Shown: piece after piece, positions 15,232-33,767 of the stretch
Layout of the letters: each line of letters begins with the position of its first letter
Position numbering within the stretch: the stretch's first letter is position 1
Source of the DNA: an uncultured bacterium
GTDB taxonomy: Bacteria; Bacteroidota; Ignavibacteria; Kapaibacteriales; UBA4661
DNA length: 64,000 nt
Direction: 5' to 3'
Assembly: GCA_937899715.1 (NCBI GenBank)
Contig: CALCNX010000089.1
Span: 9,213-73,212, forward strand
Translations under genes and position numbers: made by a program
Notes under the pieces: generated by a model
Told to the model about the DNA's origin: nothing
What the model saw: only the letters and a program-made list of their open reading frames with translations
Database searches by the model: none

Positions 15232-15471
15232 ATGACACACACATTTGCTATTCCCGGTATGACCTGCTCAGGCTGTGAGCGCACTGTTACTCGTATTTTG
15301 AGCAGTATTGACGGCATTACCGATGTTAAAACAGCACTACAACCATATTCCCACGTGGAAATTACCATGACGCGGCATCTTGAGACCGATGCTCTCAACG
15401 CCGAACTTGGCAAGGTTGCCAAAGGGAAATATGTGCTTTTGTCTGACACCGCAAACGGGGGAGCATTATGA
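15232..15471 (+). CDS. copZ: Copper chaperone CopZ (single HMA domain).
   Basis: [14 protein letters not shown] motif; 79 aa; its stop overlaps the copA start. Confidence 0.8.
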
Positions 15472-18229: not shown

Positions 18230-18293
18230 GGAGTGCGGACGGAAGTTCCGCAAAAAAAATAGAACTTAGTATGCGAACTTCCGTTCGCTCTCC
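18230..18293. repeat. Copper-island palindromic element, copy C (GGAGTGCGGACGGAAGTTCCGC … GCGAACTTCCGTTCGCTCTCC).
   Basis: It starts 8 nt after the cupredoxin stop and ends 13 nt before the multicopper-oxidase ATG. Same architecture as copy B. Confidence 0.7.
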
Positions 18294-18306
18294 ATTAGGA
18301 ATAACC

Positions 18307-19836
18307 ATGAAAACCAATCGGCGAACATTTTTGCAGCTTGCGGGCGGCACTGCGTTTGCACTCGCAGGTGGAAATGCCTTTCAAAGCTGCATGAACCCAA
18401 TGAATTCCGGTAATATGACCGAAGTAACAATTGGTGGCGAAACAGGTCTGCCGTTCCGCCAACCTTCGGTCTGGAATGGTTCTGGTATCAGCGCAAGCAC
18501 TACGACGCTCGACGTGCAAGGCGCTCCCGTTCAAGCATGGGCAATGGGCAGCTCGGTACTCGCGCCAACTATTCGCGTGCCGAAAGGTGCAGCGTTTTCA
18601 GTGCAACTTCAAAATCAGCTTGCAATGGAGACCAATATCCACTGGCACGGCTTGACTGTTCCCTCAACCATGGACGGGCATCCGAAAGACGTTGTCAAAA
18701 CGGGCGGTACATTTACTTATGCTTTCCCCGTTTTTGACCGTGCTGGAACGTACTGGTATCATCCGCACCCGCATAAAAATACGGCACGACAGACCTATAT
18801 GGGCATGGCGGGATTGTTCATCGTTGACGACCCCGCAGAAGCCTCTCTCAATCTGCCTTCGGGCGAATTTGACGTACCGCTCGTGCTGCAAGACAAACGC
18901 TTTCAGCAAGTGAAACGCTTCGTTTATGCACCTTCGATGGCAGACGTAATGACGGGTTATTTGGGCGATACAATGTTCGTAAACGGTGCTCCGGTGCCAT
19001 ATCTGGACGTAGAGAATGGTCTCTACCGCTTTCGTGTGCTGAACGCAGCAACGGCACGGGTAATGAAATTGGGCTTTGAAAACGGCATGGTGTTTCACGT
19101 TATTGGTACAGACGGGGGATTGATTGACGCGCCACAACAGGTAACAAGCGTAATGCTCTCGCCGGGCGAGCGTGTTGAGATTCTCGTGAACTTTGCGAGC
19201 ATAGCGCTTGGTGGCTCGGCGTTGTTTCAAACGCAGGAATTTACCTTGCCCGCTGCACCAGCATCACAGAGCGGGATGAATGGAATGACGATGAGCGCGT
19301 ACAAGCAAGGAATGGCAATGCCTATCATGCGCTTCAATGTGAAACGACAAACTACGCGGCAAACGACCATTCCACAGGCTCTCACACCGATTGAGCGCAT
19401 AAGCGCAGCACAAGCGACGAAAACACGGACGTTCACACTGAATATGGAAATGGTGTCGCTTGAAGGTGGTGCAACGCCTCATGGTGGCACAAATGGTGGC
19501 GAAATGATGCGCCACACGATAAATGGTAAACTCTTCGCAATGGAACGCATTGATGAGAAAATCACTTTTGGCACAACCGAAATCTGGGAATTCCAGAACA
19601 AAGGCGATGAGCCACACCCAATGCACGTTCACGGAACCCAGTTTCAAGTTTTGTCGCGCTCCGGTGGTGCGCTCGCGCCAGTGGATATGGGGTGGAAAGA
19701 CACTGTGCTGGTGAATCCCAATGAGAGTGCGCGCGTCATTCTGCGCTTCGACAAGTATCGAGGTATATACTTGGTGCATTGCCACAACCTTGAACACGAA
19801 GACGATGGTATGATGCAAAATTTTGAAGTCGTATAG
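18307..19836 (+). CDS. Tat-exported multicopper oxidase (CueO/CopA-like).
   Basis: Tat signal MKTNRRTFLQLAGGTAFALAGG. Copper ligand motifs HWHG, WYHPHPH, HPMHVHG, HCHNLEHEDDGMM. Confidence 0.85.
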   Translation: MKTNRRTFLQLAGGTAFALAGGNAFQSCMNPMNSGNMTEVTIGGETGLPFRQPSVWNGSGISASTTTLDVQGAPVQAWAMGSSVLAPTIRVPKGAAFSVQLQNQLAMETNIHWHGLTVPSTMDGHPKDVVKTGGTFTYAFPVFDRAGTYWYHPHPHKNTARQTYMGMAGLFIVDDPAEASLNLPSGEFDVPLVLQDKRFQQVKRFVYAPSMADVMTGYLGDTMFVNGAPVPYLDVENGLYRFRVLNAATARVMKLGFENGMVFHVIGTDGGLIDAPQQVTSVMLSPGERVEILVNFASIALGGSALFQTQEFTLPAAPASQSGMNGMTMSAYKQGMAMPIMRFNVKRQTTRQTTIPQALTPIERISAAQATKTRTFTLNMEMVSLEGGATPHGGTNGGEMMRHTINGKLFAMERIDEKITFGTTEIWEFQNKGDEPHPMHVHGTQFQVLSRSGGALAPVDMGWKDTVLVNPNESARVILRFDKYRGIYLVHCHNLEHEDDGMMQNFEVV

Positions 19837-19921: not shown

Positions 19922-22900
19922 ATGATTGAAAATATCATCGAATGGAGCGCGAAGAACCGTTTTATCGTTCTTTTAGCGTACTGCATCATTATCGGCATTG
20001 GCGTTTTCGCCGTCGCACGGCTGCCTGTGGATGCTATTCCCGACCTTTCGGAAAACCAAGTAATTGTCTTTACGGAATGGATGGGACGCTCACCCGAAGT
20101 GGTCGAAAATCAAGTAACCTACCCGATTGTGTCGAATCTGCAAGGACTTCCGCAGGTCAAAGCAGTACGCGCTTCCTCCATGTTCGGAATGTCGTTTGTG
20201 TTCGTCATTTTTGAGGACAACACGGATTTGTATTTTTCGCGGAACCGTGTGCTGGAGCGCTTGAACGTCATTCAAGCAAAACTGCCCGCAGGCGTTACGC
20301 CCACGCTTGGACCTGACGGCACGGGAGTTGGTCACGTGTTCTGGTACACGCTCGAAAGCAAAAAACCTCAAAGTAAAAGCTCTCAAAGCAATAGCTCAAC
20401 AAGCAAGGATGGAAAGCACTTCTACGATGCCGGAACACTCCGCGCTGTGCAGGATTGGTACGTGCGCTATAAACTCTCAGCGGTGGAAGGAGTGGCGGAA
20501 GTGGCAAGCATCGGCGGTTTTGTCAGGCAATATCAAGTGGATATTGACCCGATGAAACTTCGCGCTTACAACGTGAGCGTAGCGGAAGTCGTGAACGCGC
20601 TCCAACGCAGTAACAATGAGGTTGGCGGGAAACTACTTGAAATCAGCAGCGCAGAGTATTTTGTGCGCGGTCAGGGCTACATTCATTCCAAAGAAGACAT
20701 CGAAAATACTGTCGTCCGCACGGCATCGAATGGCGTTCCCTTGATGATACAAAACATTGCCACCGTGCAGCTTGGCGGCGACATCAGGCGCGGCACGATG
20801 GACAGAGACGGCAAAGGTGAGGCAGTTGGCGGAATTATCGTTATGCGGAGCGGCGAAAACGCTCGTGCGGTGATTGAGCGCGTGAAGCAAAAAATTACGG
20901 AGATTTCGCCCGGACTGCCCGAAGGCGTGGAAATATACGCCTCCTACGACCGCTCGACGTTGATTGAAGCGGCGGTAGGGACGCTTGAACGCGCTTTAGT
21001 TGAAGCCGCCATCGTGGTTTCGATTATCGTCGGAATTTTTCTTCTGCATTGGCGGAGTATTATCCGCATTATCATTGAATTGCCGATTGCTGTGCTGATG
21101 TCGTTTATTCTGATGTATGCTTTGGGTATCACGTCCAACATTATGAGTCTGGGCGGGATTATCCTTGCTGTGGGCGTGATTGTGGATTCGTCCATTGTTC
21201 TGGTGGAAAATTCGTATCGCAATATTGCCCACGCCATTGAACAAAAAGGACACCTCACGCCGGATGAGTACAAGCGGATTGCGATTGATTCCGCGAAACA
21301 AGTCGGTCGAGCTATTTTCTTTAGCGACCTCATTATTCTTGTGTCGTTTCTGCCCGTGTTTTTGCTTACCGGGCAAGAAGGCAAGCTCTTCAAGCCGCTT
21401 GCATTCACGAAAAGTTTCGCGCTTTTGTCGTCCGCAATCGTCGTTGTAACGCTTATTCCTGTTTTGATGACAATGCTTATGCGTGGCAATTTCAAGCCTG
21501 AAGATGCCAATGTACTCACGCGCTTTTTCAAATGCCTCTACGAGCCGATTATTCATTGGGTGCTGAAGTGGCGCAAAACCACAATGGCAATCAACATTCT
21601 CGCACTTCTCGCCACGATTCCGATGATAATGAACACGGGTTCGGAATTCATGCCACCGCTTGATGAAGGTTCGATTTTGTATATGCCCGTAACGCTGCCG
21701 AATGCTTCCACACCGGAAGTAAACCGCATTTTACAGGAACAAGACCGCATTATTAAAACCGTGCCGGAAGTCGCTCATGTTCTGGGCAAGGCAGGACGCG
21801 CCGAAACTGCAACCGACAACGCGCCGGTGAGCATGATTGAGACAATTATTCTGCTCAAGCCCAAAGAAGAGTGGCGGGCTGGGCTTCGCAAAAAAGACAT
21901 TATAGCCGAACTGGATAAAAAACTGCAAATCCCGGGCGTTCGCAACGGCTGGACGCAACCGATTATCAACCGCATCAATATGCTTTCCACAGGCGTTCGT
22001 ACTGACATTGGCTTCAAAATTTACGGTGATAATTTGGACACGCTGGAACACTACGCCATCAAAGCCGAAGAAATCTTAAAAACGGTTCCGGGAGCAGCGG
22101 ATGTGGTGGCAGACCGTGCACAAAACGGATATTATCTGGACATCAGTATCAAGCGAGAAGCCGCAGCACGATACGGCGTAAAGGTCGCCGATGTGCAGGA
22201 CATTATCGAAACCGCTATTGGCGGACAAAATTTGAGCGTTATTCTGGATGGTCGTATGCGCTTCCCGCTCCGAATGCGCTTCGCACGGGATTCCCGCGAA
22301 AGTATTGATGAATTGGAGCGTTTAATTGTACCTATTCCGGCACGAGGTTCTGTGGAAGCAAGTTTCGGTGTAGGCAGTAGTGCAACTGGTGGTATGAGCA
22401 GCGGCAGTGTGGCGGCGAGTGGAGGTATGGGTGGAATGAATAACTCTGCCACTCCCGTTAAAGAAGCAAGCAACAATGCGGGTGCTGATGCAGGAAGTTC
22501 CTCGTCGCTCTTCTCAAGCGGTCAGTCAGGCGGGCAAACTTTTGTTCCCCTTTTCTATCTCGCTGATATTCGTGTCGTGAATGGTCCTTCGATGATAAAC
22601 AGCGAACACGGTTCACTCAGGGCTGTTGTGTTCATGAATGCTCGTGGGCGTGATATGGGCGGCGTAGTGGAGGATGCACAGCGTACCATCGCGGAAAAAC
22701 TGAAACTGCCGACGGGGTATTCGGTGGAATGGAGCGGGCAGTACGAGCATAAAATTCGCGCCGACCGCACTATCAAAATCATCATGCCCGTTGTGTTTCT
22801 CATCATTTTCGTTTTGCTGTATTTCACGCTGAAAGATTACGTCGAGGCAGGAGTAGTGATGCTTTCCGTGCCATTTGCGCTCATTGGCGGAATGTACATG

Positions 22901-23347
22901 ATTTACGCATTAGGCTATAATTTTTCGATTGCTGTGTGGGTAGGATTTATCGCGCTCTACGGCGTGGCGGTGGAAACAGGTGTGGTGATGGTGGTTTATC
23001 TGCACGAGGCATTGGACAAACGCTTGCTGGCTGTACAGCGCGGTGAGCGTGGTGCGCTCACGAACACCGATATTTACAAGGCAGCAGTAGAAGGCTCCGT
23101 ATTGCGCTTGCGCCCCAAACTGATGACGGTGCTGACGGCAATGATTGGGCTTGTACCCGTGATGTGGGCGACAGGAACAGGTGCGGACGTAATGAAGCCG
23201 CTCACTGCCCCGATGATTGGTGGTCTGCTTACGTCTGCTGTTCACGTGCTGGTCGTAACGCCGGTACTGTTTGTGATGATGAAAGAGCGGGCTTTGAAAC
23301 GTGGAACACTCGAAGTCTCGAAAATGGCAGGATGGATGGGGCATTGA
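19922..23347 (+). CDS. cusA: Heavy-metal efflux RND transporter, CusA/CzcA (HME) family, with a ~90-aa Gly/Ser/Met-rich low-complexity insertion.
   Basis: 12-TM RND architecture and typical HME-RND segments (…AIPDLSENQVIV…, …GGIILAVGVIVDSSIVLVEN…). Insertion …GSSATGGMSSGSVAASGGMGGMNNSATPVKEASNNAGADAGSSSSLFSSGQSGGQTF… near residue 820. Confidence 0.9.
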   Translation: MIENIIEWSAKNRFIVLLAYCIIIGIGVFAVARLPVDAIPDLSENQVIVFTEWMGRSPEVVENQVTYPIVSNLQGLPQVKAVRASSMFGMSFVFVIFEDNTDLYFSRNRVLERLNVIQAKLPAGVTPTLGPDGTGVGHVFWYTLESKKPQSKSSQSNSSTSKDGKHFYDAGTLRAVQDWYVRYKLSAVEGVAEVASIGGFVRQYQVDIDPMKLRAYNVSVAEVVNALQRSNNEVGGKLLEISSAEYFVRGQGYIHSKEDIENTVVRTASNGVPLMIQNIATVQLGGDIRRGTMDRDGKGEAVGGIIVMRSGENARAVIERVKQKITEISPGLPEGVEIYASYDRSTLIEAAVGTLERALVEAAIVVSIIVGIFLLHWRSIIRIIIELPIAVLMSFILMYALGITSNIMSLGGIILAVGVIVDSSIVLVENSYRNIAHAIEQKGHLTPDEYKRIAIDSAKQVGRAIFFSDLIILVSFLPVFLLTGQEGKLFKPLAFTKSFALLSSAIVVVTLIPVLMTMLMRGNFKPEDANVLTRFFKCLYEPIIHWVLKWRKTTMAINILALLATIPMIMNTGSEFMPPLDEGSILYMPVTLPNASTPEVNRILQEQDRIIKTVPEVAHVLGKAGRAETATDNAPVSMIETIILLKPKEEWRAGLRKKDIIAELDKKLQIPGVRNGWTQPIINRINMLSTGVRTDIGFKIYGDNLDTLEHYAIKAEEILKTVPGAADVVADRAQNGYYLDISIKREAAARYGVKVADVQDIIETAIGGQNLSVILDGRMRFPLRMRFARDSRESIDELERLIVPIPARGSVEASFGVGSSATGGMSSGSVAASGGMGGMNNSATPVKEASNNAGADAGSSSSLFSSGQSGGQTFVPLFYLADIRVVNGPSMINSEHGSLRAVVFMNARGRDMGGVVEDAQRTIAEKLKLPTGYSVEWSGQYEHKIRADRTIKIIMPVVFLIIFVLLYFTLKDYVEAGVVMLSVPFALIGGMYMIYALGYNFSIAVWVGFIALYGVAVETGVVMVVYLHEALDKRLLAVQRGERGALTNTDIYKAAVEGSVLRLRPKLMTVLTAMIGLVPVMWATGTGADVMKPLTAPMIGGLLTSAVHVLVVTPVLFVMMKERALKRGTLEVSKMAGWMGH

Positions 23348-23395: not shown

Positions 23396-24721
23396 ATGCG
23401 ACTAATAATCATTGCTCTTTTACCAACGCTTCTTTGTGGAGTTTCACTCCCTGCGCAGCCGCTTGATTCCTTGCTTGCCGAAGCTACACGAAACAACGCA
23501 CAGCTTCGCGCTTACGGTTTCGCTGTGCAAGCCGCCGAACATCGCATAGATGCTGCTGGCGCACTGCCACCTCCGCAAGCAGGTGTATCGGTGGAGCAAG
23601 TGCCGGTCGGCAATTTTAACATTGTGAACAGCGCACTATCCAACAACTTCTACGCTTCGCAAATGTTCATGCTGGGCGGAAAACTTGACGCAATGCAAGA
23701 CATGGAGCGGGCGCGAGTAAAAAACGAACACGAGCGCACTCAAGAATTTGCAGCTAAACTTCGCGCCGAAATTACGACCGCCTACACGATGCTTTGGCGC
23801 ATTGACCGCCAGCGCGAGGTGTACGCCAGCACTGCCACCCTTCTTTCGCGCTCCATCGAAGTCGCATCGGCACAAGTGCAAGCCGCACGACTTCCCTACA
23901 CAGAAGTAATGCGCTTGGAAGCAGAGAAATCCCTTGCGCTTCTGAAACACACAACGCTTGGTAACGAACGTAAATCTGCGATTGCTATGCTGAATGCGCT
24001 ACTGGGGCGTACAAATACGGCTTCGGTGAATATTACGCCTATTCTCGCAGAACGACGATTTATCGAAGAACAAGTTCGTATCAATCTTAAACGACTTGTC
24101 GTCTCCAATCCCACGCTACGACGTATGACAAGCATGATTGCCATGACTGAAGCGGAACGGATTTCGAGCGAAAAAGAGTCAATTCCTGACGTGATGCTAC
24201 AAGGGATGATTATGCGAATGCCTCAAGGAATGGCGCTTACGGCGAATTCACCTATTTTCACTGGTGCGCTTGAATCACCATTTGCCTACGTTGTTCGTGC
24301 GCCGAATGCCCCACCTGACTTTATGTATAGCCTCATGGCACAAATTACGTTGCCCTTTGCACCATGGTCGTCGGCAAAATATACCGCCAAAACACAAGAA
24401 CTCGCAGCCATAGCCACCTCGCAAACACTGGAGCGCGAGAATATGGAGCGGATGCTCTCGGCACAAGTAGAAGAACAAGTACAAAAAATGCAGACTGCCG
24501 CAGAAACCGCAGACATCCTCGAAAAAACGGTCATTCCGCTTTACGAACGCACGTTGGATGCCCAATTAACAATGCTCTCCACCGCACAAGCAAGCATAAA
24601 CACACTGCTCGACACTGAGCGAATGCTATTGATGAAGCGCGATGACCTGCTCATGGCACGTGAGCAATACCACCTTGCGCTCGCTCAGCTAGAATACTTG
24701 CTTGGCGAGCCGTTGCGATGA
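23396..24721 (+). CDS. cusC: Outer-membrane efflux factor (TolC/CusC-like).
   Basis: Signal peptide and two-repeat OEP architecture with coiled-coil periplasmic segments. Located between cusA and cusB. Confidence 0.75.
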   Translation: MRLIIIALLPTLLCGVSLPAQPLDSLLAEATRNNAQLRAYGFAVQAAEHRIDAAGALPPPQAGVSVEQVPVGNFNIVNSALSNNFYASQMFMLGGKLDAMQDMERARVKNEHERTQEFAAKLRAEITTAYTMLWRIDRQREVYASTATLLSRSIEVASAQVQAARLPYTEVMRLEAEKSLALLKHTTLGNERKSAIAMLNALLGRTNTASVNITPILAERRFIEEQVRINLKRLVVSNPTLRRMTSMIAMTEAERISSEKESIPDVMLQGMIMRMPQGMALTANSPIFTGALESPFAYVVRAPNAPPDFMYSLMAQITLPFAPWSSAKYTAKTQELAAIATSQTLERENMERMLSAQVEEQVQKMQTAAETADILEKTVIPLYERTLDAQLTMLSTAQASINTLLDTERMLLMKRDDLLMAREQYHLALAQLEYLLGEPLR

Positions 24722-24730
24722 TTTTTTATC

Positions 24731-24794
24731 GGATTGCGGAATTTTAATTCCGCCTTTTTCAACAATTTCAATCGCGGAATAAATTCCGCACTTC
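24731..24794. repeat. Copper-island palindromic element, copy E (GGATTGCGGAATTTTAATTCCGC … GCGGAATAAATTCCGCACTTC).
   Basis: Two perfect GCGGAAT-N2/4-ATTCCGC palindromes flanked by degenerate GGAtTG / CACTtC arms. It lies between the cusC stop (24721) and the cusB ATG (24805). Confidence 0.6.
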
Positions 24795-24804
24795 ATGCAC
24801 GATT

Positions 24805-26100
24805 ATGAACTACCTCATTCTTGCCATTCTTTTTATCCTGACGGCGTGTTCGCAAAAACAGAACGCGCAAAATGGACACGCAGGACACAATGATTCTACC
24901 GCTCTGCAAGCCGCAAAGCCCGTCAAATATATCTGTCCGATGCACCCCAAAGTAACGTCCGACAAAGAAGGTATTTGTCCAATTTGTCAGATGGACTTAG
25001 TGCCGGAAAACAGCCCTGAAGCGAAGGAATACGCGGAGGACGAGCATTCTCACGAGCATAGTTCTCACGAGAACAGTTCTCATACGGAACATACGTTGGG
25101 CGAGCTTGCCATAACAGGGCAAAGCCGTGTACTGGCGGATGTGCAAACAGCAACCGTTCAGAGCGAGTCTATTCATCGCACCGTCAATGTTGTTGGCACA
25201 TTGGACTTTGCCGAACAGAATCGCCGCAGTATCACTGCCCGCGTGAGTGGACGGATTGAAAAATTATACGTGAACCAGTCTGGGATGACCATTCGTAAGG
25301 GGCAGGCACTTTTTGATGTGTACAGCCCCGAACTCCTACAAGCACAAAACGAGTATATCATTGCCTTCAAAAACCAGCAATTAGCAAGCCTGAGCGGTGG
25401 CACAAGCACGGCAATTCTCAGAAAATTGAAAGAGCGTTTGATGATTTGGGGGCTGACCGAAGAGCAAGTTCAGGCACTAGAGCGCTCGCAGGATGCACCA
25501 CTCACAACCACTCTTCATGCGCCTTTCGGCGGGACGGTGATTGAGAAAAAAGTTGTGGAAGGAACGTTTGTGAGCATCGGCGCACCACTCTTTGAAGTTG
25601 CCGACCTTTCTACGCTGTGGAATATAGCAGGGATTTATGAAACAGACGTGGCGGCGGTGAAGATTGGTCAACAGGTTGCTCTGAGGACGCAAACCTATCC
25701 GGGCGAGACCTTCAAAGGGCGCATTGCCTTTATCTATCCCGTCGTGAACGCGGAATCGCGCACGGTGAAAGTCCGTATTGAAACGCCCAACCCTCACAAA
25801 AGGCTACGTCCGGCGATGTACACCGAAACAACGTTTATGCTCAATCAAGGCAAAGGCTTGACTGTTCCCAATGATGCGGTGTTGGTAACAGGCAAACAAT
25901 CTATTGTTTGGGTGCAGGCACAGGTCGAAGCAAACAAATTCGAGGCGCGGCGCGTAACGCTGGGAGCAAAATTTGACGGTAAAATACAAATTCTTTCCGG
26001 TGTATCGGCAGGAGAAAAAGTGGTGGCACGTGGTGGATTTTTGCTGGATTCGGAGCGGCAGTTGCGCGGTGGAACTGGCAGCGAAGGACATCAGCATTAA
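24805..26100 (+). CDS. cusB: RND efflux membrane-fusion (periplasmic adaptor) protein CusB-like, with an N-terminal YxCPMHP heavy-metal-binding domain and a His-rich stretch.
   Basis: Lipobox LILAILFILTACSQ; HMBD-type motif YICPMHPKVTSDKEGICPICQMDL; His-rich EDEHSHEHSSHENSSHTEH; HlyD/biotin-lipoyl-like barrel segments. Confidence 0.85.
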   Translation: MNYLILAILFILTACSQKQNAQNGHAGHNDSTALQAAKPVKYICPMHPKVTSDKEGICPICQMDLVPENSPEAKEYAEDEHSHEHSSHENSSHTEHTLGELAITGQSRVLADVQTATVQSESIHRTVNVVGTLDFAEQNRRSITARVSGRIEKLYVNQSGMTIRKGQALFDVYSPELLQAQNEYIIAFKNQQLASLSGGTSTAILRKLKERLMIWGLTEEQVQALERSQDAPLTTTLHAPFGGTVIEKKVVEGTFVSIGAPLFEVADLSTLWNIAGIYETDVAAVKIGQQVALRTQTYPGETFKGRIAFIYPVVNAESRTVKVRIETPNPHKRLRPAMYTETTFMLNQGKGLTVPNDAVLVTGKQSIVWVQAQVEANKFEARRVTLGAKFDGKIQILSGVSAGEKVVARGGFLLDSERQLRGGTGSEGHQH

Positions 26101-27010: not shown

Positions 27011-28084
27011 ATGGAACCGCGTTCTGCCCTGACAATTTACCGAAAAATGATGAAAATAGGAACTGTTGAAGTCGAGCAAGGCGTACTGCTTGCGCCAATG
27101 GAAGATGTGAGCGATTTACCGTTTCGCGTGCTCTGTCGTGCGTTGGGGGCGGATATTATGTACACCGAATTTATCTCCTCCGAAGGTTTGGTCAGGGATG
27201 CAGGTCGTTCTGTTAAAAAACTCACCCTTCACCAGGACGAACACCCCGTTGCTATTCAGATTTTTGGTGGAAATTTGGACGTGATGAAAGAAGCGGCGCT
27301 CATTGCAGAGGCATCGGGACCCGATTTTATTGACATCAACTGCGGTTGCTGGGTGAAAAATGTGGTTGTGCGTAGCGCAGGGGCAGCATTGCTCAAAGAA
27401 CCCGATACAATGGTCACCATGGCAAAAACCCTTGTGGAGACTGTTGAACTGCCAGTAACGGTCAAAACACGGCTTGGATGGGACAAAAACTCTATTATCA
27501 TTGTTGATTTGGCAAAGCGATTGGAGCAAGAAGCAGGAATTGCAGCGCTCGCAATTCACTGCCGCACACGTGATATGGGGCATGAAGGCGCAGCCGATTG
27601 GACATGGGTAGAGAAAGTGAAAAATGCCGTGAACATCCCCATTATCCTGAATGGTGACGTGAACACGCCTGAAGATTGCCAACGTGCCTTTAGTACGACG
27701 GGCTGTGATGCGGTAATGATTGGCAGGGCAGCCATTACCAATCCATTTATTTTTCGTCAAGCAAAAACCTATCTTCGTACTGGCGAACTTGAGGCTCCGC
27801 CTAGTCTGCAAGAGCGTATTGAACTCTGCTTGCAGCACTTACGTCATTCGGTGGCGTTCAAAGGCGAGGGACTGGCAGTACGGGAATTTAGAAAGTTTTA
27901 TAGCGGCTATTTGAAGGGTCTGTACGATGCTTCATCTGTCCGCCGCGATATCATGCGTTACGATAGTTTTGCACAGGTAGAAGAGCGACTTTGGCTCTAT
28001 CATGCGCAGCTTTCGGAACGCCAAAACGCTGAAGAATCTTCAGCAGAATTCACAGAATACGCAGAACACGCAATGGCGATGTAA
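27011..28084 (+). CDS. dus: tRNA-dihydrouridine synthase (DusB-like).
   Basis: TIM-barrel Dus motifs LAPMEDVSDLPFR, IDINCGCW, and catalytic region …HCRTR…; ~350 aa. An alternative start MMKIG is at 27047. Confidence 0.85.
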   Translation: MEPRSALTIYRKMMKIGTVEVEQGVLLAPMEDVSDLPFRVLCRALGADIMYTEFISSEGLVRDAGRSVKKLTLHQDEHPVAIQIFGGNLDVMKEAALIAEASGPDFIDINCGCWVKNVVVRSAGAALLKEPDTMVTMAKTLVETVELPVTVKTRLGWDKNSIIIVDLAKRLEQEAGIAALAIHCRTRDMGHEGAADWTWVEKVKNAVNIPIILNGDVNTPEDCQRAFSTTGCDAVMIGRAAITNPFIFRQAKTYLRTGELEAPPSLQERIELCLQHLRHSVAFKGEGLAVREFRKFYSGYLKGLYDASSVRRDIMRYDSFAQVEERLWLYHAQLSERQNAEESSAEFTEYAEHAMAM

Positions 28085-28221
28085 GGTAGGCACAGAGCCA
28101 GCAATGGTGCGCTCAGCCGCGCCGCGGAACATACTCCTCCGCGCTAAGGATTGCTTTTACCCAAACAGTGTGCTTCATCTGATGCTTCCATACACTTCTC
28201 GCCGCACAACATCTATAACGA

Positions 28222-30741
28222 ATGGCACGACGACCCCCACGCCCCCAGCAATCAAGCTCTTCGGGGCGCTCCCGTTTTGACGACGCACCGTACCCCGGCA
28301 GTCATGGCACCCCAAACGAGCGTACTCCACCACGCGGTAATCCGCCACGCAGCACTGCACCACGCCCTAATGCAAGGCGCAGTAACCAAGTGCGTAACGA
28401 TGCACCCTCTGGCAATACTTCGCGCAGTAATGCTTCGCACAGCTCTCCATCACGGGATGAATTTCCACGCGACAATTTTTCACGAGATAACTTTCGACAA
28501 GGCTTCCGTCCCGACTCGCCACGTGGCGGGCGCACCTCTCGTGTCAGTTCGTCGTCTCGTACTCCACGAACCACACCGCCTAGAGAGCGCACGGTATCTC
28601 AGTTAGAGAATCGCCCTGAGCCACAGGTAGAAAGCCGTATTATCCCCGTCAACCCCTTTACTCCTCAGCTTCCCGCATCATTTGCGACGCTGGAGAATGA
28701 ACATCTTTATCTTGATTCCACCTCCGAGGCATTGCTAAACGATACGTTGTATAGCGTTCGGGTGGAACAAGCTCTCATGCGATATGTGGCAGAACGCCAG
28801 ACACAGACTGTTCCGCAGCCAATTCGTATCCCTGAAGACGGAGAAGAGAAAACGGCAAATAGTGCGGAACTTGCTCCCAAGCAAGCACTCACGCCAGCCC
28901 GTACCCGCCACGCTCGTAGTATCGGCGGTGAGACAGGTGACGAAGGCACTTCTGTACCAAAACCTGCTCGCAGAGTGCAATTACCCGATGAACCCGACCA
29001 TGTCAAAAGTCCTTTCGGCGACGTTATTGAGACTATTCAAGAAGTTCTCATCGCCCGCAATAGTGGGCGCTATGTGCCGACACCCAAGTCATCGGAGAAG
29101 CCGCGCCCGCCCGGTGTTGATTTACATCCGGCTATCGGTTTCAAAATGTATGCGCCCAATCCGCACAAACCCGCCGGTACACAGGCACGTCGCGGTATGC
29201 AACGCTATCCGAATCGCCAAGAACGAGTCTATCCGGCAGCCGTGCCCATTGATGCTGTCTTTGAAACAATGCCTACGGCTCTGAACGCCTTCCATGACCG
29301 CCTGCAGAGTGTCTTGCGCTACGAAGCCGAAATGCCCGCAAGTTCAGAAGTGGTCGTCGCCGTAAGCGGTGGCGTGGATTCGGTCGTTCTTTTGGATATG
29401 CTGATGTGCCTTGCTCGAAATAATGCCCTCACGAGTGGGAAGCGACAACTGCAAGTAGCCGTTGTACATTTCAACCATCGTTTGCGCGGCATAGAATCAG
29501 ACAATGACGCCAATTTTGTCCGTGAGACGTGTAAGCGGTACGACATTCCTTGCTACATCGCTTGGGCAGATGTAGAGCGCTTTGCAGAGATTCAAAGCAT
29601 GACTATTGAGCAAGCAGGGCGCGAATTGCGCTATAAATTTTTGGAATTTGTCGCCTACAAACGCCGTGCTGATGCCGTCCTGACGGCGCACACACTGAAT
29701 GATTCAGTCGAGACCGTGCTGATGAATATGTTACGCGGTTCAGGACTAACGGGGCTTTCCGGCATTCCTGCGCAACGAGTTTTTGGCGAACATACCAAAC
29801 TGCTACGTCCGCTCTTGAGTATGAAAAAAGCCGAGATTCAGGAGTATGCAGCCCTTCGCGGTTTGTCATGGCGCGAGGATTCGTCCAATTCGCAATCGGT
29901 CTTTCGTCGTAATAAAATCCGAAATGAATTGCTGCCATTGCTGGAACGTGAGTATTCATCGGGTATTGTTGATGTGCTGCACCGTACATCGCAGATTATT
30001 TCGGGCGCGGAGGATATTGTGCGTGATGCGGTGGAACGCGCTTTACCAACCGCTTTAGTGGAAGATGAATTTCAGCCGTACATTGGTCTGACGGTAACGG
30101 CGTTACGTGTGCAGAAGCGCTTTTTACAGACAGAAATGGTTCGCCGCGTGGTACAACGCCGTTTTGGTCTCGCTCTTGGCTTTGATGCCGTTGATAGAGT
30201 TCTGTCTCTCATGGATGCCGAAGTGGGTGCAAAGGTAGATGTCATGCGGGGTTTCATTGCTCTCCGCGACCGAGCGGCAATTTTACTTTCGCCCGCCCCC
30301 GGAGTGCATAATATCAACGTCCGCGTGGAGAAGAACAATCGCTATGATTTTGGCGGCTGGCAGATTATTCTTGAGGAAGTTGACCGAAAAAATGTCAAAT
30401 TCACCGCCGACCCTGCGGTCGAATTTCTTGATACCCGCGCACTGCCCTATCGCATGACGCTCCGCACGTGGCAGCCCGGAGATGTATTTACGCCGCTTGG
30501 AATGAAGGGGACAATGAAAGTAAGTGACTACCTTACCAATTCTAAAATTTCCTTTTTCAACCGCCAAAATATTTTGGTGCTCACCGCCGCTATGCCCGAA
30601 GGCGAGCAGGTAATATGGCTCTGCGGCTTGCGTTTGAGCGACCAATTTCGCCTTCCTCCCGATGCCCATAAAGCGCTCCGTCTGGAGTTTCGCCGCCCTA
30701 AAGGAATTGTTCTACCTGCTCCACCACAAGAAAAAATATGA
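28222..30741 (+). CDS. tilS: tRNA(Ile)-lysidine synthetase TilS with a ~370-aa Arg/Ser/Pro-rich N-terminal extension.
   Basis: PP-loop VVVAVSGGVDSVVLLDML lies at about residue 380 of the ORF. A C-terminal TilS substrate-binding region follows. The upstream 370 codons are continuous, low-complexity, and rich in R/S/P/N. Confidence 0.75.
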   Translation: MARRPPRPQQSSSSGRSRFDDAPYPGSHGTPNERTPPRGNPPRSTAPRPNARRSNQVRNDAPSGNTSRSNASHSSPSRDEFPRDNFSRDNFRQGFRPDSPRGGRTSRVSSSSRTPRTTPPRERTVSQLENRPEPQVESRIIPVNPFTPQLPASFATLENEHLYLDSTSEALLNDTLYSVRVEQALMRYVAERQTQTVPQPIRIPEDGEEKTANSAELAPKQALTPARTRHARSIGGETGDEGTSVPKPARRVQLPDEPDHVKSPFGDVIETIQEVLIARNSGRYVPTPKSSEKPRPPGVDLHPAIGFKMYAPNPHKPAGTQARRGMQRYPNRQERVYPAAVPIDAVFETMPTALNAFHDRLQSVLRYEAEMPASSEVVVAVSGGVDSVVLLDMLMCLARNNALTSGKRQLQVAVVHFNHRLRGIESDNDANFVRETCKRYDIPCYIAWADVERFAEIQSMTIEQAGRELRYKFLEFVAYKRRADAVLTAHTLNDSVETVLMNMLRGSGLTGLSGIPAQRVFGEHTKLLRPLLSMKKAEIQEYAALRGLSWREDSSNSQSVFRRNKIRNELLPLLEREYSSGIVDVLHRTSQIISGAEDIVRDAVERALPTALVEDEFQPYIGLTVTALRVQKRFLQTEMVRRVVQRRFGLALGFDAVDRVLSLMDAEVGAKVDVMRGFIALRDRAAILLSPAPGVHNINVRVEKNNRYDFGGWQIILEEVDRKNVKFTADPAVEFLDTRALPYRMTLRTWQPGDVFTPLGMKGTMKVSDYLTNSKISFFNRQNILVLTAAMPEGEQVIWLCGLRLSDQFRLPPDAHKALRLEFRRPKGIVLPAPPQEKI

Positions 30742-30823
30742 CGTGGCGAGCACATAGCAGCAAGACAACACACTAATTTTGCTAAACAAGCGTTTACACG
30801 AACAGTACACAATCACATTCTTT

Positions 30824-31387
30824 ATGACGATGATGAGCAACAACGATATTCTGGAACTCCACGATAAGCATTTCAAAAAACTTATTAGCCGCGAGCAAAT
30901 CCACGATGCAGTCAAGCGTCTCGGCGCTCAGATTACGGCGGATTACAATGCAAGCGAGGTAGTATTCGTCGTAGTACTAAAAGGCAGTATTCTTTTTGCA
31001 ACCGACCTCATTCGTGAAGTCCATCTACCGTGCAAACTTGAATTCATACGCGCCGAAAGCTACGGTACGGGTATGCACTCGTCAGGCAAAGTGAACGTAA
31101 CGCATTATACAGGCATGGATTTGGCAGGCAAGCACGTCATTGTTCTCGAAGACATTGTTGACACAGGCTTGACGGTCAAGCAAATTCTTGCGCATCTCGA
31201 AGAAATGAACCCCGCATCGCTCAAAATTGCAACGCTTTTCTTGAAGCCTGAAGTATGCAAAGGTACGGTCGCAACACATTATGTAGGGTTTGAAATTTCG
31301 CCGCTCTTCATTGTCGGCTATGGGCTAGATTACAACGAACTCGGGCGCAACCTCGCTGATGTCTATATCCTACACGAAACTCCGTAA
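30824..31387 (+). CDS. hpt: Hypoxanthine-guanine phosphoribosyltransferase.
   Basis: PRPP-binding motif VIVLEDIVDTGLT; conserved tilS-hpt-ftsH synteny. ATG at 30824; the track start is TTG. Confidence 0.85.
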   Translation: MTMMSNNDILELHDKHFKKLISREQIHDAVKRLGAQITADYNASEVVFVVVLKGSILFATDLIREVHLPCKLEFIRAESYGTGMHSSGKVNVTHYTGMDLAGKHVIVLEDIVDTGLTVKQILAHLEEMNPASLKIATLFLKPEVCKGTVATHYVGFEISPLFIVGYGLDYNELGRNLADVYILHETP

Positions 31388-31640: not shown

Positions 31641-33767
31641 ATGGCAGCTGATGAACGCAAAAACACGAACAACAGCGAGCCGAAAAAGCCGAATCGCCCG
31701 CAGAACCGTGATAACAAAAATAATCTCAAGGGTTTGCGCAATAATAACAATGACGAATCCCCAGCAGGCAAAGTCATGAAAACGGCGATGATATGGCTCT
31801 TCATTTTCGGCTTTGTTGTCGTAATGTATATGCTCGTCAGTAGCGGACAGCAATCGGAAGTGTCCGTTACCTATACCGAGTACAAACAATTCCTCGAAGC
31901 AGGGAAAATTGAATCGGCAACAATTTCTAAATCGCAGCTCAACGACTTCGTTTTTCACGGCGTTCTGCGTGAAAAAGTAAGCATCCTGAAACCTAATGGC
32001 ACGGGACAAGTCGAGGTACAGCGCTTTTTCACACGCTTGGGCGTACTGGATTCTGAAACCGAAAAGGCTTGGGCAGATAAAGGCATCGTTTGGCGCTACG
32101 AAGAAGGCGACAGTCCTTGGCTTAGTATGGTCATTTCCTTCTTGCCGTGGCTTATCTTGATTGGTGTTTATTTCTTCGTTATGCGCCGTATGCAGGGCGG
32201 AAGCGGCGGACCGGGCGGTACACGCGGCATTTTCTCCTTCGGCAAAGCACGTGCGCGACTGATGAATGAGAATGCCAAGACCGTGACCTTTGAAGATGTC
32301 GCTGGTGCGGACGAAGCAAAATATGAACTTGAAGAGATTATCGAATTCCTCCGCGACCCCAATAAATTCCAACGCTTGGGCGGTAAAATTCCACATGGCG
32401 TTCTGATGCTTGGACCTCCAGGGACGGGTAAAACCTTGCTTGCTCGTGCTATTGCGGGTGAAGCAGATGTGCCGTTCTTCTCTATTTCCGGCGCAGACTT
32501 CGTGGAAATGTTCGTGGGCGTAGGTGCAAGCCGCGTACGTGACCTTTTTGAGCAAGCAAAACGCAGCGCTCCGTGTATTATTTTCATTGATGAGATTGAT
32601 GCCGTTGGTCGCCATAGAGGCGCAGGATTAGGCGGCGGACACGATGAGCGCGAACAAACGCTGAACCAACTTCTTGTCGAAATGGACGGCTTTGAGCAAA
32701 ATATGGGCATCATCGTTGTTGCAGCCACAAACCGTCCCGACGTTCTTGACCCAGCACTTTTGCGCCCCGGACGCTTCGACCGCCAAGTGGTTGTTGACCG
32801 CCCTGATGTACGCGGACGCGAAGGTATTTTGAAAGTTCATGCTCGCCACATTCCACTTTCGCCGGATGTCAATTTGGAAATTGTCGCACGTGGTACGCCG
32901 GGACTTTCCGGCGCAGACCTTGCGAATTTGATGAACGAAGCTGCTCTTTTCGCTGCTCGCAAGAATAAAGATTTTGTAACGATGGACGACATCGAAAGTG
33001 CAAAAGATAAAATTCTGATGGGTGTTGAGCGGAAAAGCATGGTTATTTCCGAAAAAGAAAAAGAAGTCACCGCATATCATGAGATGGGACACGCACTGGC
33101 AGGAAAACTTCTTCCGTACAGCGACCCTGTCCACAAGGTAACAATTATTCCGCGTGGTCGTGCACTCGGCGTTACCTCGTATGTTCCCAATGAAGACGCA
33201 CACACATACTCGAAAGATTACCTCGAGACACGGCTTATTACCTTGCTCGCCGGACGCGCTGCCGAGACCATCGTTTTCAATCAGCTGACAACCGGTGCAG
33301 GCAACGACATTGAACGGGCAACAATGCTTGCTCGCAAGATGGTCTGCGAATGGGGAATGAGCGAGAAACTGGGACCGCTTAATTTTGCCAGCAAAGACGA
33401 AGAAGTGTTCCTCGCCCGTGAAATGGCGCATCCACGCCAGCACAGCGATGAAACAGCACGTATCATTGACGACGAAATCCGCCGTATTGTCACCACATCC
33501 ATGCACCAAGCAGAGGTACTCTTGCGCGAGAATATCGAAATGCTCCACAAGACTTCCAAAGTCCTACTTGAGCGTGAGATTCTTGATGCCGAAGAATTGG
33601 ACATGATTATGCGTGGCGAGGAATTACCACCTTCCACACGAGAAAAGCGGGTACCATATGGCACAGCAAAAAATGGTGCTAACGGTGTTGCTCCCAGCGA
33701 TGATGCCGCAACCGATACGGCACAGGATGTTTCTGTGAAACCTGAAATCACACCGCCAACAGTGTAG
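31641..33767 (+). CDS. ftsH: ATP-dependent zinc metalloprotease FtsH.
   Basis: Walker A GPPGTGKT, Walker [13 protein letters not shown] region, zinc site HEMGHAL. Good Shine-Dalgarno site (AAGGAGAAcagaATG). Confidence 0.95.

What the first reader, a model, noticed from the sequence alone, without database searches (positions are those of the whole stretch)
28222..29330. TilS carries a 370-residue Arg/Ser/Pro-rich, probably disordered, N-terminal extension
The TilS PP-loop (SGGVDS) begins at about residue 380 of an 839-aa ORF. The preceding ~1.1 kb is one continuous frame with extreme composition (…PRPQQSSSSGRSRF…RSTAPRPNARRSNQVRNDAPSGNTSRSNASHSSPSRDEFPRDNFSRDNF…TSRVSSSSRTPRTTPPRER…). This gives rise to several overlapping alternative-frame ORFs in the track.

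Bacterial TilS proteins are normally 430-470 aa, and a long basic, RS-like tail is unusual. It could be an RNA- or ribosome-tethering region, a fused upstream gene, or the true start could be an internal ATG (MPASSEVVVAV, at about 29326) with the upstream frame open by chance.
Basis: partly seen in the sequence, partly recalled or inferred. Interest (0 to 1): 0.55.

Follow-up and report, generated by a model that had tools for sequence, protein, structure and literature searches.

The report
TilS enzyme with long disordered head
An essential tRNA-modifying enzyme (TilS) in this Kapabacteria-type bacterium really is made with an extra ~350-residue, mostly disordered, positively charged N-terminal arm that selection has kept across its relatives, an unusual and undescribed add-on whose job (most likely holding RNA) is still untested.

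Summary
ORF 28222..30741 (+) encodes 839 aa. A canonical type-I TilS occupies aa 352-839, with the PP-loop SGGVDS at 382-387. About 350 residues with no Pfam or PDB match precede it.

The extension is translated, not a chance-open frame:
- The ATG and a MARRPxRP N-terminus are conserved in five relatives' genomes, always directly after dus.
- dN/dS is 0.22 (leading part) to 0.10 (conserved block) in the tilS frame only. An independent pair gave 0.08.
- The proposed internal start, M371, is Leu or Ile in relatives.
- A profile of the extension found only TilS proteins among 1.84 billion representatives, so it is not a fused gene.

Only aa 1-145 are extreme (R 19%, P 17%, S 17%, no Lys, net +14), and this is not an SR-type domain. 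Residues 146-351 carry conserved motifs. One, HPAIGFKMY, is predicted to dock on the enzyme core.

Sister Kapabacteria lineages carry unrelated Lys-rich or AT-hook-like extensions of 470-620 aa at the same place. An outgroup has a 473-aa TilS abutting dus.

Best reading: a lineage-specific polycationic nucleic-acid-tethering arm plus core-docking motifs. That function is inferred, not shown. New variant of a known enzyme; moderate interest.

The parts
28222..30741 (+). Full tilS coding sequence, 839 aa plus stop
   Evidence: ORF listing. TilS domains by Pfam and NCBIfam. Full-length homologs of 764-854 aa at 48-93% identity.
28085..28221 (+). 137-nt dus-tilS spacer. Its 3' end (GCCGCACAACATCTATAACGA) and the first codons (ATGGCACGACGACC) are conserved in relatives. 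There is no Shine-Dalgarno motif, no sigma-70-like promoter and no + strand terminator.
   Evidence: DNA alignment of the window with L001-L005. Promoter and terminator scan. SD-like motifs are rare genome-wide, 3 of 25 ORFs.
28222..28656 (+). Leading Arg/Ser/Pro-rich polycationic disordered region, aa 1-145 (27 Arg, 0 Lys, net +14, pI 11.9). It starts with the conserved N-terminus MARRPxRP.
   Evidence: Composition and charge-hydropathy. AlphaFold2 pLDDT below 50. dN/dS 0.22 in frame, p = 4e-7, and above 1 in the other frames; replicate pair 0.077. Length varies from 100 to 161 aa, but net charge stays +9 to +16 and pI 11.2-12.0 across relatives.
28453..28506 (+). Short aromatic repeats inside the disordered region: RDEF-P-RDNF-S-RDNF-RQGF (aa 78-95). 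The equivalents in relatives are RDNF, QERF and RGGF repeats.
   Evidence: Protein alignment A1. Motif counts of 2-5 per protein in most relatives.
28657..28836 (+). Conserved motif F.PQ.P.SFA.LENE.LYL and a predicted helix (aa 172-194) containing R.EQALMR
   Evidence: Alignments A1 and A2. The helix is predicted both in the full-length protein (pLDDT 63-76) and in the extension alone (about 73).
28837..29007 (+). Variable, slightly acidic linker (aa 206-262), predicted disordered
   Evidence: Poorly alignable, with many indels. pLDDT below 50. dN/dS about 0.27.
29008..29274 (+). Most conserved block of the extension (aa 263-351): SPFGDxIxTxQEVLIARNxGRYVPxPK..EKPRPPGVDLHPAIGFKxYAPNPH ... YPAAVPxDAVFxTMP
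   Evidence: Invariant and near-invariant columns in A2. dN/dS 0.105. No match in Pfam or PDB.
29125..29151 (+). HPAIGFKMY (aa 302-310), a predicted beta-strand inferred to dock on the TilS core
   Evidence: pLDDT about 93 with strand 306-310 in the full-length model. In the extension-only model the strand is lost and pLDDT falls to about 57-61 (pTM 0.16). Coordinates could not be inspected, so docking is an inference.
29275..30738 (+). Canonical type-I TilS (aa 352-839): first helix 352-368, PP-loop domain and C-terminal substrate-binding domains
   Evidence: TIGR02432 at 185.5 bits (cut-off 93.6) and TIGR02433 at 31.2 bits (cut-off 20.2). Sequence match to PDB 3a2k residues 14-442. Foldseek hit to 3a2k, E 1.8e-31 over 476 columns. 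dN/dS 0.033.
29365..29382 (+). PP-loop ATP-binding motif SGGVDS (aa 382-387)
   Evidence: S, G, G, D and S are invariant in the 91-sequence TilS alignment A3; all six residues are invariant in the 20-sequence alignment A1.
29332..29334 (+). It is not conserved.
   Evidence: The position is Leu or Ile in P0005-P0015. It lies downstream of the canonical first helix.

Best explanation
Shown. The 839-aa ORF is the real tilS product of a Kapabacteria-type bacterium (Bacteroidota sensu GTDB; the nearest relative is the Kapabacteriales MAG Clear-D13). A normal type-I tRNA(Ile)-lysidine synthetase (aa 352-839) carries a translated, selected, lineage-specific N-terminal appendage of about 351 aa. The appendage lies between dus and the TilS core.

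The appendage has two parts:
(a) A fast-evolving Arg/Ser/Pro-rich polycation (aa 1-145). Its sequence and length drift, but its N-terminal MARRP motif, its strong positive charge and its RDxF-type aromatic repeats are kept.
(b) A motif-bearing segment (aa 146-351). It does not fold on its own, but it contains conserved helices and a strand.

Inferred. Part (a) works as a flexible, non-specific nucleic-acid (tRNA or rRNA) tether. It would raise the local concentration of the rare substrate tRNA-Ile2(CAU), or hold the enzyme in an RNA-rich compartment. This is analogous to the basic N-terminal appendages of eukaryotic class IIb aminoacyl-tRNA synthetases. Part (b) anchors the arm to the catalytic body through the HPAIGFKMY strand and offers helices for a partner or for tRNA.

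Confidence that the extension is real, translated and under selection is about 0.95. Confidence in the nucleic-acid-tether mechanism is about 0.4.
For: Reality of the extension:
- Fifteen protein clusters of 677-854 aa at 48-93% identity cover up to 100% of the query.
- Five genome loci keep the ATG and the MA(R/K)RP start 1-2 codons after an in-frame stop, right after dus.
- NG86 dN/dS for the window against L001, in the tilS frame, is 0.22, 0.26, 0.105 and 0.033 for aa 1-145, 146-255, 256-372 and the core. Fisher p is 4e-7 or lower for the IDR, the 256-372 block and the core, and 4e-5 for aa 146-255. The other two frames give 0.7-7 plus stops.
- The independent pair L003/L005 gives 0.077 and 0.129.
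- Arg codon usage is the same as in the core.

Architecture:
- In the AlphaFold2 model, pLDDT is below 50 for aa 1-170 and 196-270. There is a helix at 172-194 and a strand at 306-310 with pLDDT about 93, and the strand disappears when the core is removed.

Function, indirect evidence:
- Charge and composition are conserved (net +9 to +16, pI 11.2-12.0) although the sequence turns over.
- Sister Kapabacteria TilS proteins carry non-homologous but equally basic extensions in the same position. P0018, P0123 and P0124 are Lys-rich, with a conserved SRREKRRLEWLEKRRQWRDQK helix. P0017 has six RxGRP(K/R) AT-hook-like motifs. The P0016 frame is stop-free and Arg-rich for 410 codons or more.
- The outgroup P0019 has a 473-aa TilS overlapping dus in the same gene order.
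- Basic N-terminal extensions that give non-specific tRNA binding are documented for class IIb aaRS (PMC3824080).
Against: - No binding, localisation or activity data exist, so the tether function rests on composition and analogy.
- One relative (P0012, locus L008) truly lacks the leading polycation: dus ends 13 nt before tilS. Part (a) is therefore dispensable in at least one lineage.
- Part (b) is roughly neutral in charge, so it is not itself an obvious RNA binder.
- Docking of aa 302-310 is inferred only from pLDDT differences, because the coordinates could not be inspected. The extension columns of the alignment are only about 15 sequences deep.
- M350 (the TMP motif) is conserved in most relatives. 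A second, short isoform from an internal start cannot be excluded.
Confidence: 0.55

Rival explanations
1. The extension is real, but it acts through proteins rather than RNA. It could be a solubility or 'entropic bristle' tail or a chaperone-interaction region for an aggregation-prone enzyme. Alternatively it could be a hub of short linear motifs that recruits a partner such as the ribosome, FtsH or another tRNA enzyme.
For: Conserved short motifs and helices sit inside long disordered linkers, which is typical of protein-binding linear motifs. Part (b) is near neutral in charge. The abstract of bioRxiv 10.1101/2025.07.01.662558, listed, reports TilS as an obligate Hsp90 client in another bacterium. 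tilS sits in the conserved tilS-hpt-ftsH cluster.
Against: This reading does not explain why very different sequences in sister lineages all stay strongly basic (Arg-rich, Lys-rich, AT-hook-like). A pure solubility tail would more often be acidic or mixed. No partner has been identified.
Confidence: 0.25
2. Two isoforms are made. The long form starts at ATG 28222, and a canonical form of about 490 aa starts at the conserved internal Met350 (nt 29269). The extension would then modulate only a sub-population of the enzyme.
For: M350, in the motif (T/A/V/I)MP, is conserved in most relatives and sits just before the canonical first helix. Initiation in this genome is largely Shine-Dalgarno-independent, so internal starts cannot be ruled out from the sequence.
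Against: No promoter-like site was found inside the gene. The Met lies in a conserved peptide motif (VFxTMP), so its conservation is already explained at the protein level. Purifying selection on all upstream codons shows the long form is made.
Confidence: 0.12
3. The true start is the internal ATG at 29332 (M371), and the upstream 1.1 kb is non-coding or open by chance.
For: The extreme composition creates several overlapping open frames. Public gene callers often truncate the relatives at internal starts.
Against: M371 is Leu or Ile in relatives, and starting there would remove helix 352-368. Frame-specific dN/dS is 0.1-0.26 with p of 4e-5 or lower, while the other frames look neutral or worse and contain stops. 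P(open by chance) is about 2e-6. All indels in five relatives preserve the frame.
Confidence: 0.02
4. The extension is a separate upstream gene fused to tilS, either biologically or through an assembly or frameshift error.
For: The extension has its own conserved blocks and no similarity to TilS.
Against: A profile search of aa 145-372 against 1.84 billion representatives returned 3 hits, each with the matched stretch upstream of a TilS PP-loop core in the same protein, and no stand-alone protein. The same continuous ORF appears in six independent assemblies. The extension does not fold autonomously (pTM 0.16). The outgroup has dus directly abutting tilS, with no intervening gene.
Confidence: 0.02

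Closest known systems
Type-I bacterial TilS (tRNA(Ile)-lysidine synthetase; structures 3a2k from Geobacillus kaustophilus and 1ni5 from E. coli MesJ)
   Same: Residues 352-839 have the PP-loop N-domain, the SGGVDS motif and the C-terminal substrate-binding domains. They sit in the usual tilS-hpt-ftsH neighbourhood.
   Different: Solved and typical TilS proteins are 430-470 aa and begin at the helix that corresponds to aa 352 here. This protein has 351 extra N-terminal residues with no counterpart in Pfam or PDB. No description was found in the literature searches.
N-terminal basic extensions of eukaryotic class IIb aminoacyl-tRNA synthetases (AspRS, LysRS, AsnRS)
   Same: A flexible, positively charged N-terminal appendage on a tRNA-handling enzyme. 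In those enzymes it confers non-specific tRNA binding (PMC3824080). This is the functional model proposed here.
   Different: Those extensions are 20-70 aa, Lys-rich, and form one amphipathic helix. This one is 351 aa and Arg/Ser/Pro-rich, with extra conserved motifs. There is no sequence homology. The analogy is untested here.
Sister Kapabacteria TilS extensions (P0018, P0123, P0124 Lys/Ser/Ala-rich; P0017 with RxGRP(K/R) AT-hook-like repeats; P0016 Arg/Gln/Glu/Pro-rich)
   Same: Same position between dus and the PP-loop domain, same general build (a long basic disordered region with a few conserved motifs), and the same gene order.
   Different: There is no detectable homology to the window's extension (hhalign probability 0.1%). 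The basic residue is Lys rather than Arg, and the lengths are 470-620 aa.
Eukaryotic SR-protein RS domains
   Same: Rich in Arg and Ser, and disordered.
   Different: There is no alternating RS/SR dipeptide pattern: 11 observed against 8.9 expected from composition. The region is also Pro-rich. It is not an RS domain.

Membership tests
TilS (tRNA(Ile)-lysidine synthetase) | PP-loop ATP-pyrophosphatase N-domain with the SGGxDS motif | tested here: met
   PF01171 E 4e-53 over aa 377-569. TIGR02432 scores 185.5 bits against a cut-off of 93.6. SGGVDS at aa 382-387: S, G, G, D and S are invariant in 91 TilS sequences.
TilS (tRNA(Ile)-lysidine synthetase) | TilS-specific C-terminal substrate-binding domain (type-I architecture) | tested here: met
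   PF11734 scores 25.1 bits (cut-off 22). TIGR02433 scores 31.2 bits (cut-off 20.2). Foldseek matches 3a2k over 476 columns and the C-domain structure 3hj7.
TilS (tRNA(Ile)-lysidine synthetase) | Conserved neighbourhood tilS-hpt-ftsH | tested here: met
   hpt lies at 30779..31387, followed by an FtsH-sized ORF (not family-scanned here) at 31641..33764. Relatives show the same order, with ftsH identified by Pfam there.
TilS (tRNA(Ile)-lysidine synthetase) | Typical single-module length of about 430-470 aa, starting at the first helix of the PP-loop domain | tested here: not met
   The protein is 839 aa and the canonical first helix begins at aa 352. This is why it is classed as a variant, not a typical member.
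TilS (tRNA(Ile)-lysidine synthetase) | Catalyses lysidine formation at C34 of tRNA-Ile2(CAU) | not testable with these tools
   Needs an enzyme assay or complementation. No tRNA gene lies in the window.
SR-type RS domain | Runs of alternating Arg-Ser dipeptides | tested here: not met
   11 RS/SR dipeptides against 8.9 expected from composition in aa 1-145.
AT-hook nucleic-acid-binding motif | R-G-R-P core flanked by basic residues | tested here: not met
   There are 0 matches in the window protein and 6 pattern matches in the sister protein P0017. Pfam reports no AT_hook hit even there.
Twin-arginine (Tat) signal peptide | An RR motif followed by a hydrophobic h-region | tested here: not met
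   MARRP is followed by a polar stretch. Mean hydropathy of aa 1-30 is -1.58, and there is no hydrophobic segment before aa 136.
Class IIb aaRS N-terminal tRNA-binding extension | A short Lys-rich amphipathic helix appended to an aaRS anticodon-binding domain | tested here: not met
   The host enzyme is different, aa 1-145 contain no Lys, and no helix is predicted there. It is a functional analogy only.

The most novel reading that the evidence does not exclude
Across the class Kapabacteria, the essential decoding enzyme TilS has acquired a 350-620-aa basic disordered N-terminal arm. The arm would give it a second activity or a specific location. Examples are condensate formation or ribosome- or nucleoid-tethered channelling of tRNA-Ile2, or a moonlighting DNA- or RNA-binding regulatory role. 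On this reading, lysidine formation in this lineage depends on an IDR-mediated mechanism not seen in any studied bacterium.
Probability: 0.15. Interest if true: 0.65.

Novelty: new variant of a known kind. Interest (0 to 1): 0.42.

Why it matters
TilS is essential in almost all bacteria and is regarded as a compact enzyme of 430-470 aa with a well-understood tRNA recognition mode. Here a class-wide appendage nearly doubles its size. It is kept by selection even where its sequence is free to drift, and it is repeatedly re-invented as a polycation.

This would be a clean natural system for asking what long disordered basic tails do for bacterial RNA enzymes: substrate capture, localisation or phase behaviour.

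There is also a practical point. Public annotation pipelines mis-call these genes. At least five relatives are truncated at internal starts, and spurious overlapping genes are called in the low-complexity DNA. Length-based or start-codon-based curation of TilS in Bacteroidota-related MAGs is therefore unreliable.

Tried and rejected
- The extension-only word-indexed search returned nothing. This was a prefilter artefact. Local phmmer with the same query against P0001-P0015 gives E-values from 1e-207 to 4e-10 at the same database size.
- Pfam, NCBIfam and PDB sequence searches of the extension gave no match.
- hhalign of the extension profile against the Lys-rich extension of P0018 showed no homology.
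- The sigma-70 promoter and terminator scan found nothing on the + strand, either in the spacer or inside the gene. The tool does not cover Bacteroidota-type promoters.
- Tandem-repeat search of the DNA found only two weak 15-nt repeats, so the region is not a simple repeat expansion.
- My first idea that several relatives (P0013, P0015, P0016) lack the leading polycation was wrong. Their frames stay open upstream and encode it. Only P0012 truly lacks it.
- dN/dS against the more distant relatives L002-L004 is saturated at synonymous sites and was not relied on.
- Literature searches for a TilS N-terminal extension or disorder found only the apicoplast-targeted Plasmodium enzyme and unrelated papers.
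- The alternative-frame ORFs in the region (28151..28606 +, 28302..28592 -, 28784..29284 +) were rejected as composition artefacts.
Full report
**Observation.** The window holds an 839-aa ORF on the + strand from ATG 28222 to stop 30741. Pfam places the PP-loop domain at aa 377-569 and TilS_C at aa 746-817, and nothing on aa 1-376. NCBIfam's TilS domain models both pass their cut-offs: TIGR02432 at 185.5 against 93.6 bits, and TIGR02433 at 31.2 against 20.2 bits. The C-terminal 491 residues align to solved TilS structures: 3a2k residues 14-442, 1wy5 and 1ni5. The AlphaFold2 model's best structural match is 3a2k, E 1.8e-31 over 476 columns. The neighbours are a dihydrouridine synthase gene (dus, 27011..28084) upstream and hpt (30779..31387) downstream. 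The 370 codons before the PP-loop are open well beyond chance. P is about 2e-6 from local composition, 0 of 20,000 shuffles stayed open, and the other five frames have 4-25 stops. There are small corrections. The internal ATG is at 29332. The canonical TilS fold already starts at helix 352-368. Only aa 1-145 have extreme composition: R 19%, P 17%, S 17%, 27 Arg, no Lys, net +14, pI 11.9.

**Is the extension translated?** A search with the extension alone returned nothing, but that was an artefact of the word prefilter. Local phmmer with the same query scores P0001-P0015 at E-values from 1e-207 to 4e-10. The full-length search found 15 clusters of 677-854 aa at 48-93% identity, covering up to 100% of the query. 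A scan of one genome per species found five loci, named Kapabacteriales / Candidatus Kapaibacterium / 'Ignavibacteria bacterium' MAGs. The closest is strain Clear-D13 (that MAG is described in PMC7714850). All five have dus immediately upstream. In all five the long frame starts at MA(R/K)RP. In three of them an in-frame stop lies two codons upstream of that ATG. The ATG and the following bases (ATGGCACGACGACC) are conserved in the DNA alignment, while the spacer varies in length.

**Selection.** For the window against Clear-D13 (dS about 0.3-0.4, so unsaturated), dN/dS in the tilS frame was as follows:

| Region (aa) | dN/dS | Fisher p |
|---|---|---|
| 1-145 | 0.22 | 4e-7 |
| 146-255 | 0.26 | 4e-5 |
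| 256-372 | 0.105 | 8e-9 |
| TilS core | 0.033 | 6e-58 |

Read in the other two frames, the same DNA gives ratios of 0.7-7 and contains stops. Differences in aa 1-145 fall 14, 7 and 29 on codon positions 1, 2 and 3. An independent pair (L003 against L005) gives 0.077 for the leading region and 0.129 for the rest of the extension. Arg codon choice matches the core.

**The internal-start and fusion alternatives.** M371 is Leu or Ile in most relatives. It also lies after the canonical first helix, so it is not the start. M350 (the TMP motif) is mostly conserved and lies just before that helix, so a minor second isoform cannot be excluded. It also sits inside a conserved peptide motif. Shine-Dalgarno evidence is useless here, because only 3 of 25 large ORFs in the window have an SD-like motif. 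No sigma-70-like promoter was found inside the gene. A profile of aa 145-372 (alignment A2) searched against 1.84 billion representative proteins returned only three hits. In each, the matched stretch lies upstream of a TilS PP-loop core in the same protein. PDB gave nothing. There is no free-standing homolog, so there is no evidence for a fused gene. In the outgroup P0019 the same dus-tilS-hpt-ftsH order holds, with a 473-aa TilS whose start overlaps dus. The extension is thus an insertion at the 5' end of tilS.

**Anatomy.** The alignments and the AlphaFold2 models give a two-part picture.

- **Part (a), aa 1-145.** pLDDT is below 50. Length varies from 100 to 161 aa and the region is hard to align. 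It keeps the MARRPxRP N-terminus, a net charge of +9 to +16, a pI of 11.2-12.0, Arg rather than Lys, and short aromatic repeats (RDEF/RDNF/RQGF here; QERF or RGGF elsewhere). It is not an SR-type domain: RS/SR dipeptides number 11 against 8.9 expected.
- **Part (b), aa 146-351.** Composition is ordinary and net charge is near zero. It contains the motif F.PQ.P.SFA.LENE.LYL and a helix at 172-194 with R.EQALMR. A variable acidic linker follows. Then comes the strongly conserved block SPFGDxIxTxQEVLIARNxGRYVPxPK..EKPRPPGVDLHPAIGFKxYAPNPH...YPAAVPxDAVFxTMP.

In the full-length model, residues 301-310 reach pLDDT of about 93 and form a strand at 306-310. When the extension is modelled alone, pTM is 0.16, the strand is lost and pLDDT falls to about 57-61. 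I infer that this segment docks on the catalytic body and that the extension is not an autonomous domain. The coordinates could not be inspected.

**Distribution.**
- Several relatives that looked shorter are gene-calling errors. The frames of L011 (P0013) and L009 (P0015) stay open 135 and 175 codons further upstream and encode MARQTPPRRGQ... and MARRTLQRTQRS....
- L004 (P0007) starts at MAKRPSRT.
- Only P0012 truly lacks part (a), because dus ends 13 nt before tilS. It still keeps part (b).
- Deeper relatives also have long TilS proteins in the same dus-tilS-hpt setting. P0018, P0123 and P0124 are 941, 1066 and 868 aa. Their extensions are Lys/Ser/Ala-rich with conserved motifs of their own, such as SRREKRRLEWLEKRRQWRDQK.
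- P0017 (918 aa) has six RxGRP(K/R) AT-hook-like motifs.
- In the '508-aa' P0016, the tilS frame is stop-free and Arg/Gln/Glu/Pro-rich for all 410 codons up to the contig edge.
- These extensions show no detectable homology to the window's.

A long basic disordered N-terminal arm on TilS therefore looks like a trait of the Kapabacteria-type lineage as a whole, with rapid sequence turnover.

**Mechanism.** The following is shown: this is a real, selected appendage on an otherwise ordinary type-I TilS. The rest is inferred. Positive charge persists through complete sequence replacement. One lineage has AT-hook-like motifs and another has a highly basic conserved helix. Part (a) is disordered. 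Together these point to non-specific nucleic-acid binding. The arm would act as a flexible tether that helps capture tRNA or keeps the enzyme in an RNA-rich location. This is analogous to the basic N-terminal extensions of class IIb aminoacyl-tRNA synthetases, which confer non-specific tRNA binding (PMC3824080). Part (b) probably anchors the arm on the core and may bind a partner.

The rivals are a protein-interaction or solubility role, and dual isoforms from M350. The chance-ORF, internal-start and gene-fusion readings are effectively excluded.

**Novelty.** Literature searches found no description of such a bacterial TilS; only the Plasmodium apicoplast enzyme's extension is discussed. I class this as a new variant of a known enzyme, of moderate interest. 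The catalytic part is ordinary. The appendage is unusual in size, conservation pattern and lineage-wide recurrence, but its function is unknown.

Noticed in passing
L009:2476-3000, L011:1414-1818, L004:5497-5800, L010:1-1230: Public gene calls truncate the TilS of several relatives at internal starts (P0015, P0013, P0007, P0016). The 89-aa opposite-strand call at L009:2615-2884 and the 338-aa call at L010:2-1018 overlap the open tilS frame and are probably spurious products of T-poor, low-complexity DNA.
   Followed up: partly
window 28151..28606 (+), 28302..28592 (-), 28784..29284 (+): Alternative-frame ORFs of 96-166 aa overlap the extension. Read in the two other + strand frames, the region shows dN/dS of 0.7 or higher and acquires stops, so the two + strand ORFs are composition artefacts. 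The - strand ORF was not tested separately and is rejected by extension.
   Followed up: yes
window 28205..28236 and the matching positions in L001-L005: The bases around the start (…ATAACGAATGGCACGACGACC…) are conserved even at synonymous positions across six loci, although the rest of the spacer varies from about 60 to about 360 nt. This may be an RNA-level constraint on SD-independent translation initiation.
   Followed up: no
window, 25 large ORFs (e.g. 27011, 28222, 31641): Only 3 of 25 large ORFs have a Shine-Dalgarno-like motif upstream. This is consistent with Bacteroidota-style SD-independent initiation in this genome.
   Followed up: partly
window 19922..23347 (+): A CusA/RND-type efflux pump ORF (1141 aa) carries a Ser/Gly-rich low-complexity insert of about 60 aa near aa 820-880. 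It sits in an apparent copper-resistance cluster (CopA-like 15468..17759, multicopper-oxidase-like 18271..19836, CusC/CusB-like 23396..26100). These identities were judged by eye and not confirmed by family search.
   Followed up: no
P0018, P0123, P0124 (locus L006:4001-6826): The sister-clade TilS extensions share their own conserved motifs inside Lys/Ser/Ala-rich disorder: PS(L/I)EE(V/L)xAFIxSxK and a very basic helix (I/L)SRRE(Q/K)RRL(D/E)WLEKRRxWR(E/D)QK. P0123 also has a run of RD(A/T/Q)RD repeats.
   Followed up: partly
tool behaviour: The word-indexed homolog search returned no hit for the extension alone, although 93%-identical proteins are in the database. Low-complexity words seem to swamp candidate selection. 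Negative results for compositionally biased queries should not be trusted.
   Followed up: yes
L008 (GCA_025055035.1, P0012): This is the only relative that truly lacks the leading Arg-rich region. It also has the most degenerate versions of the HPAIGFKxY and YPAAVP motifs. It may be a lineage in which the appendage is decaying.
   Followed up: no
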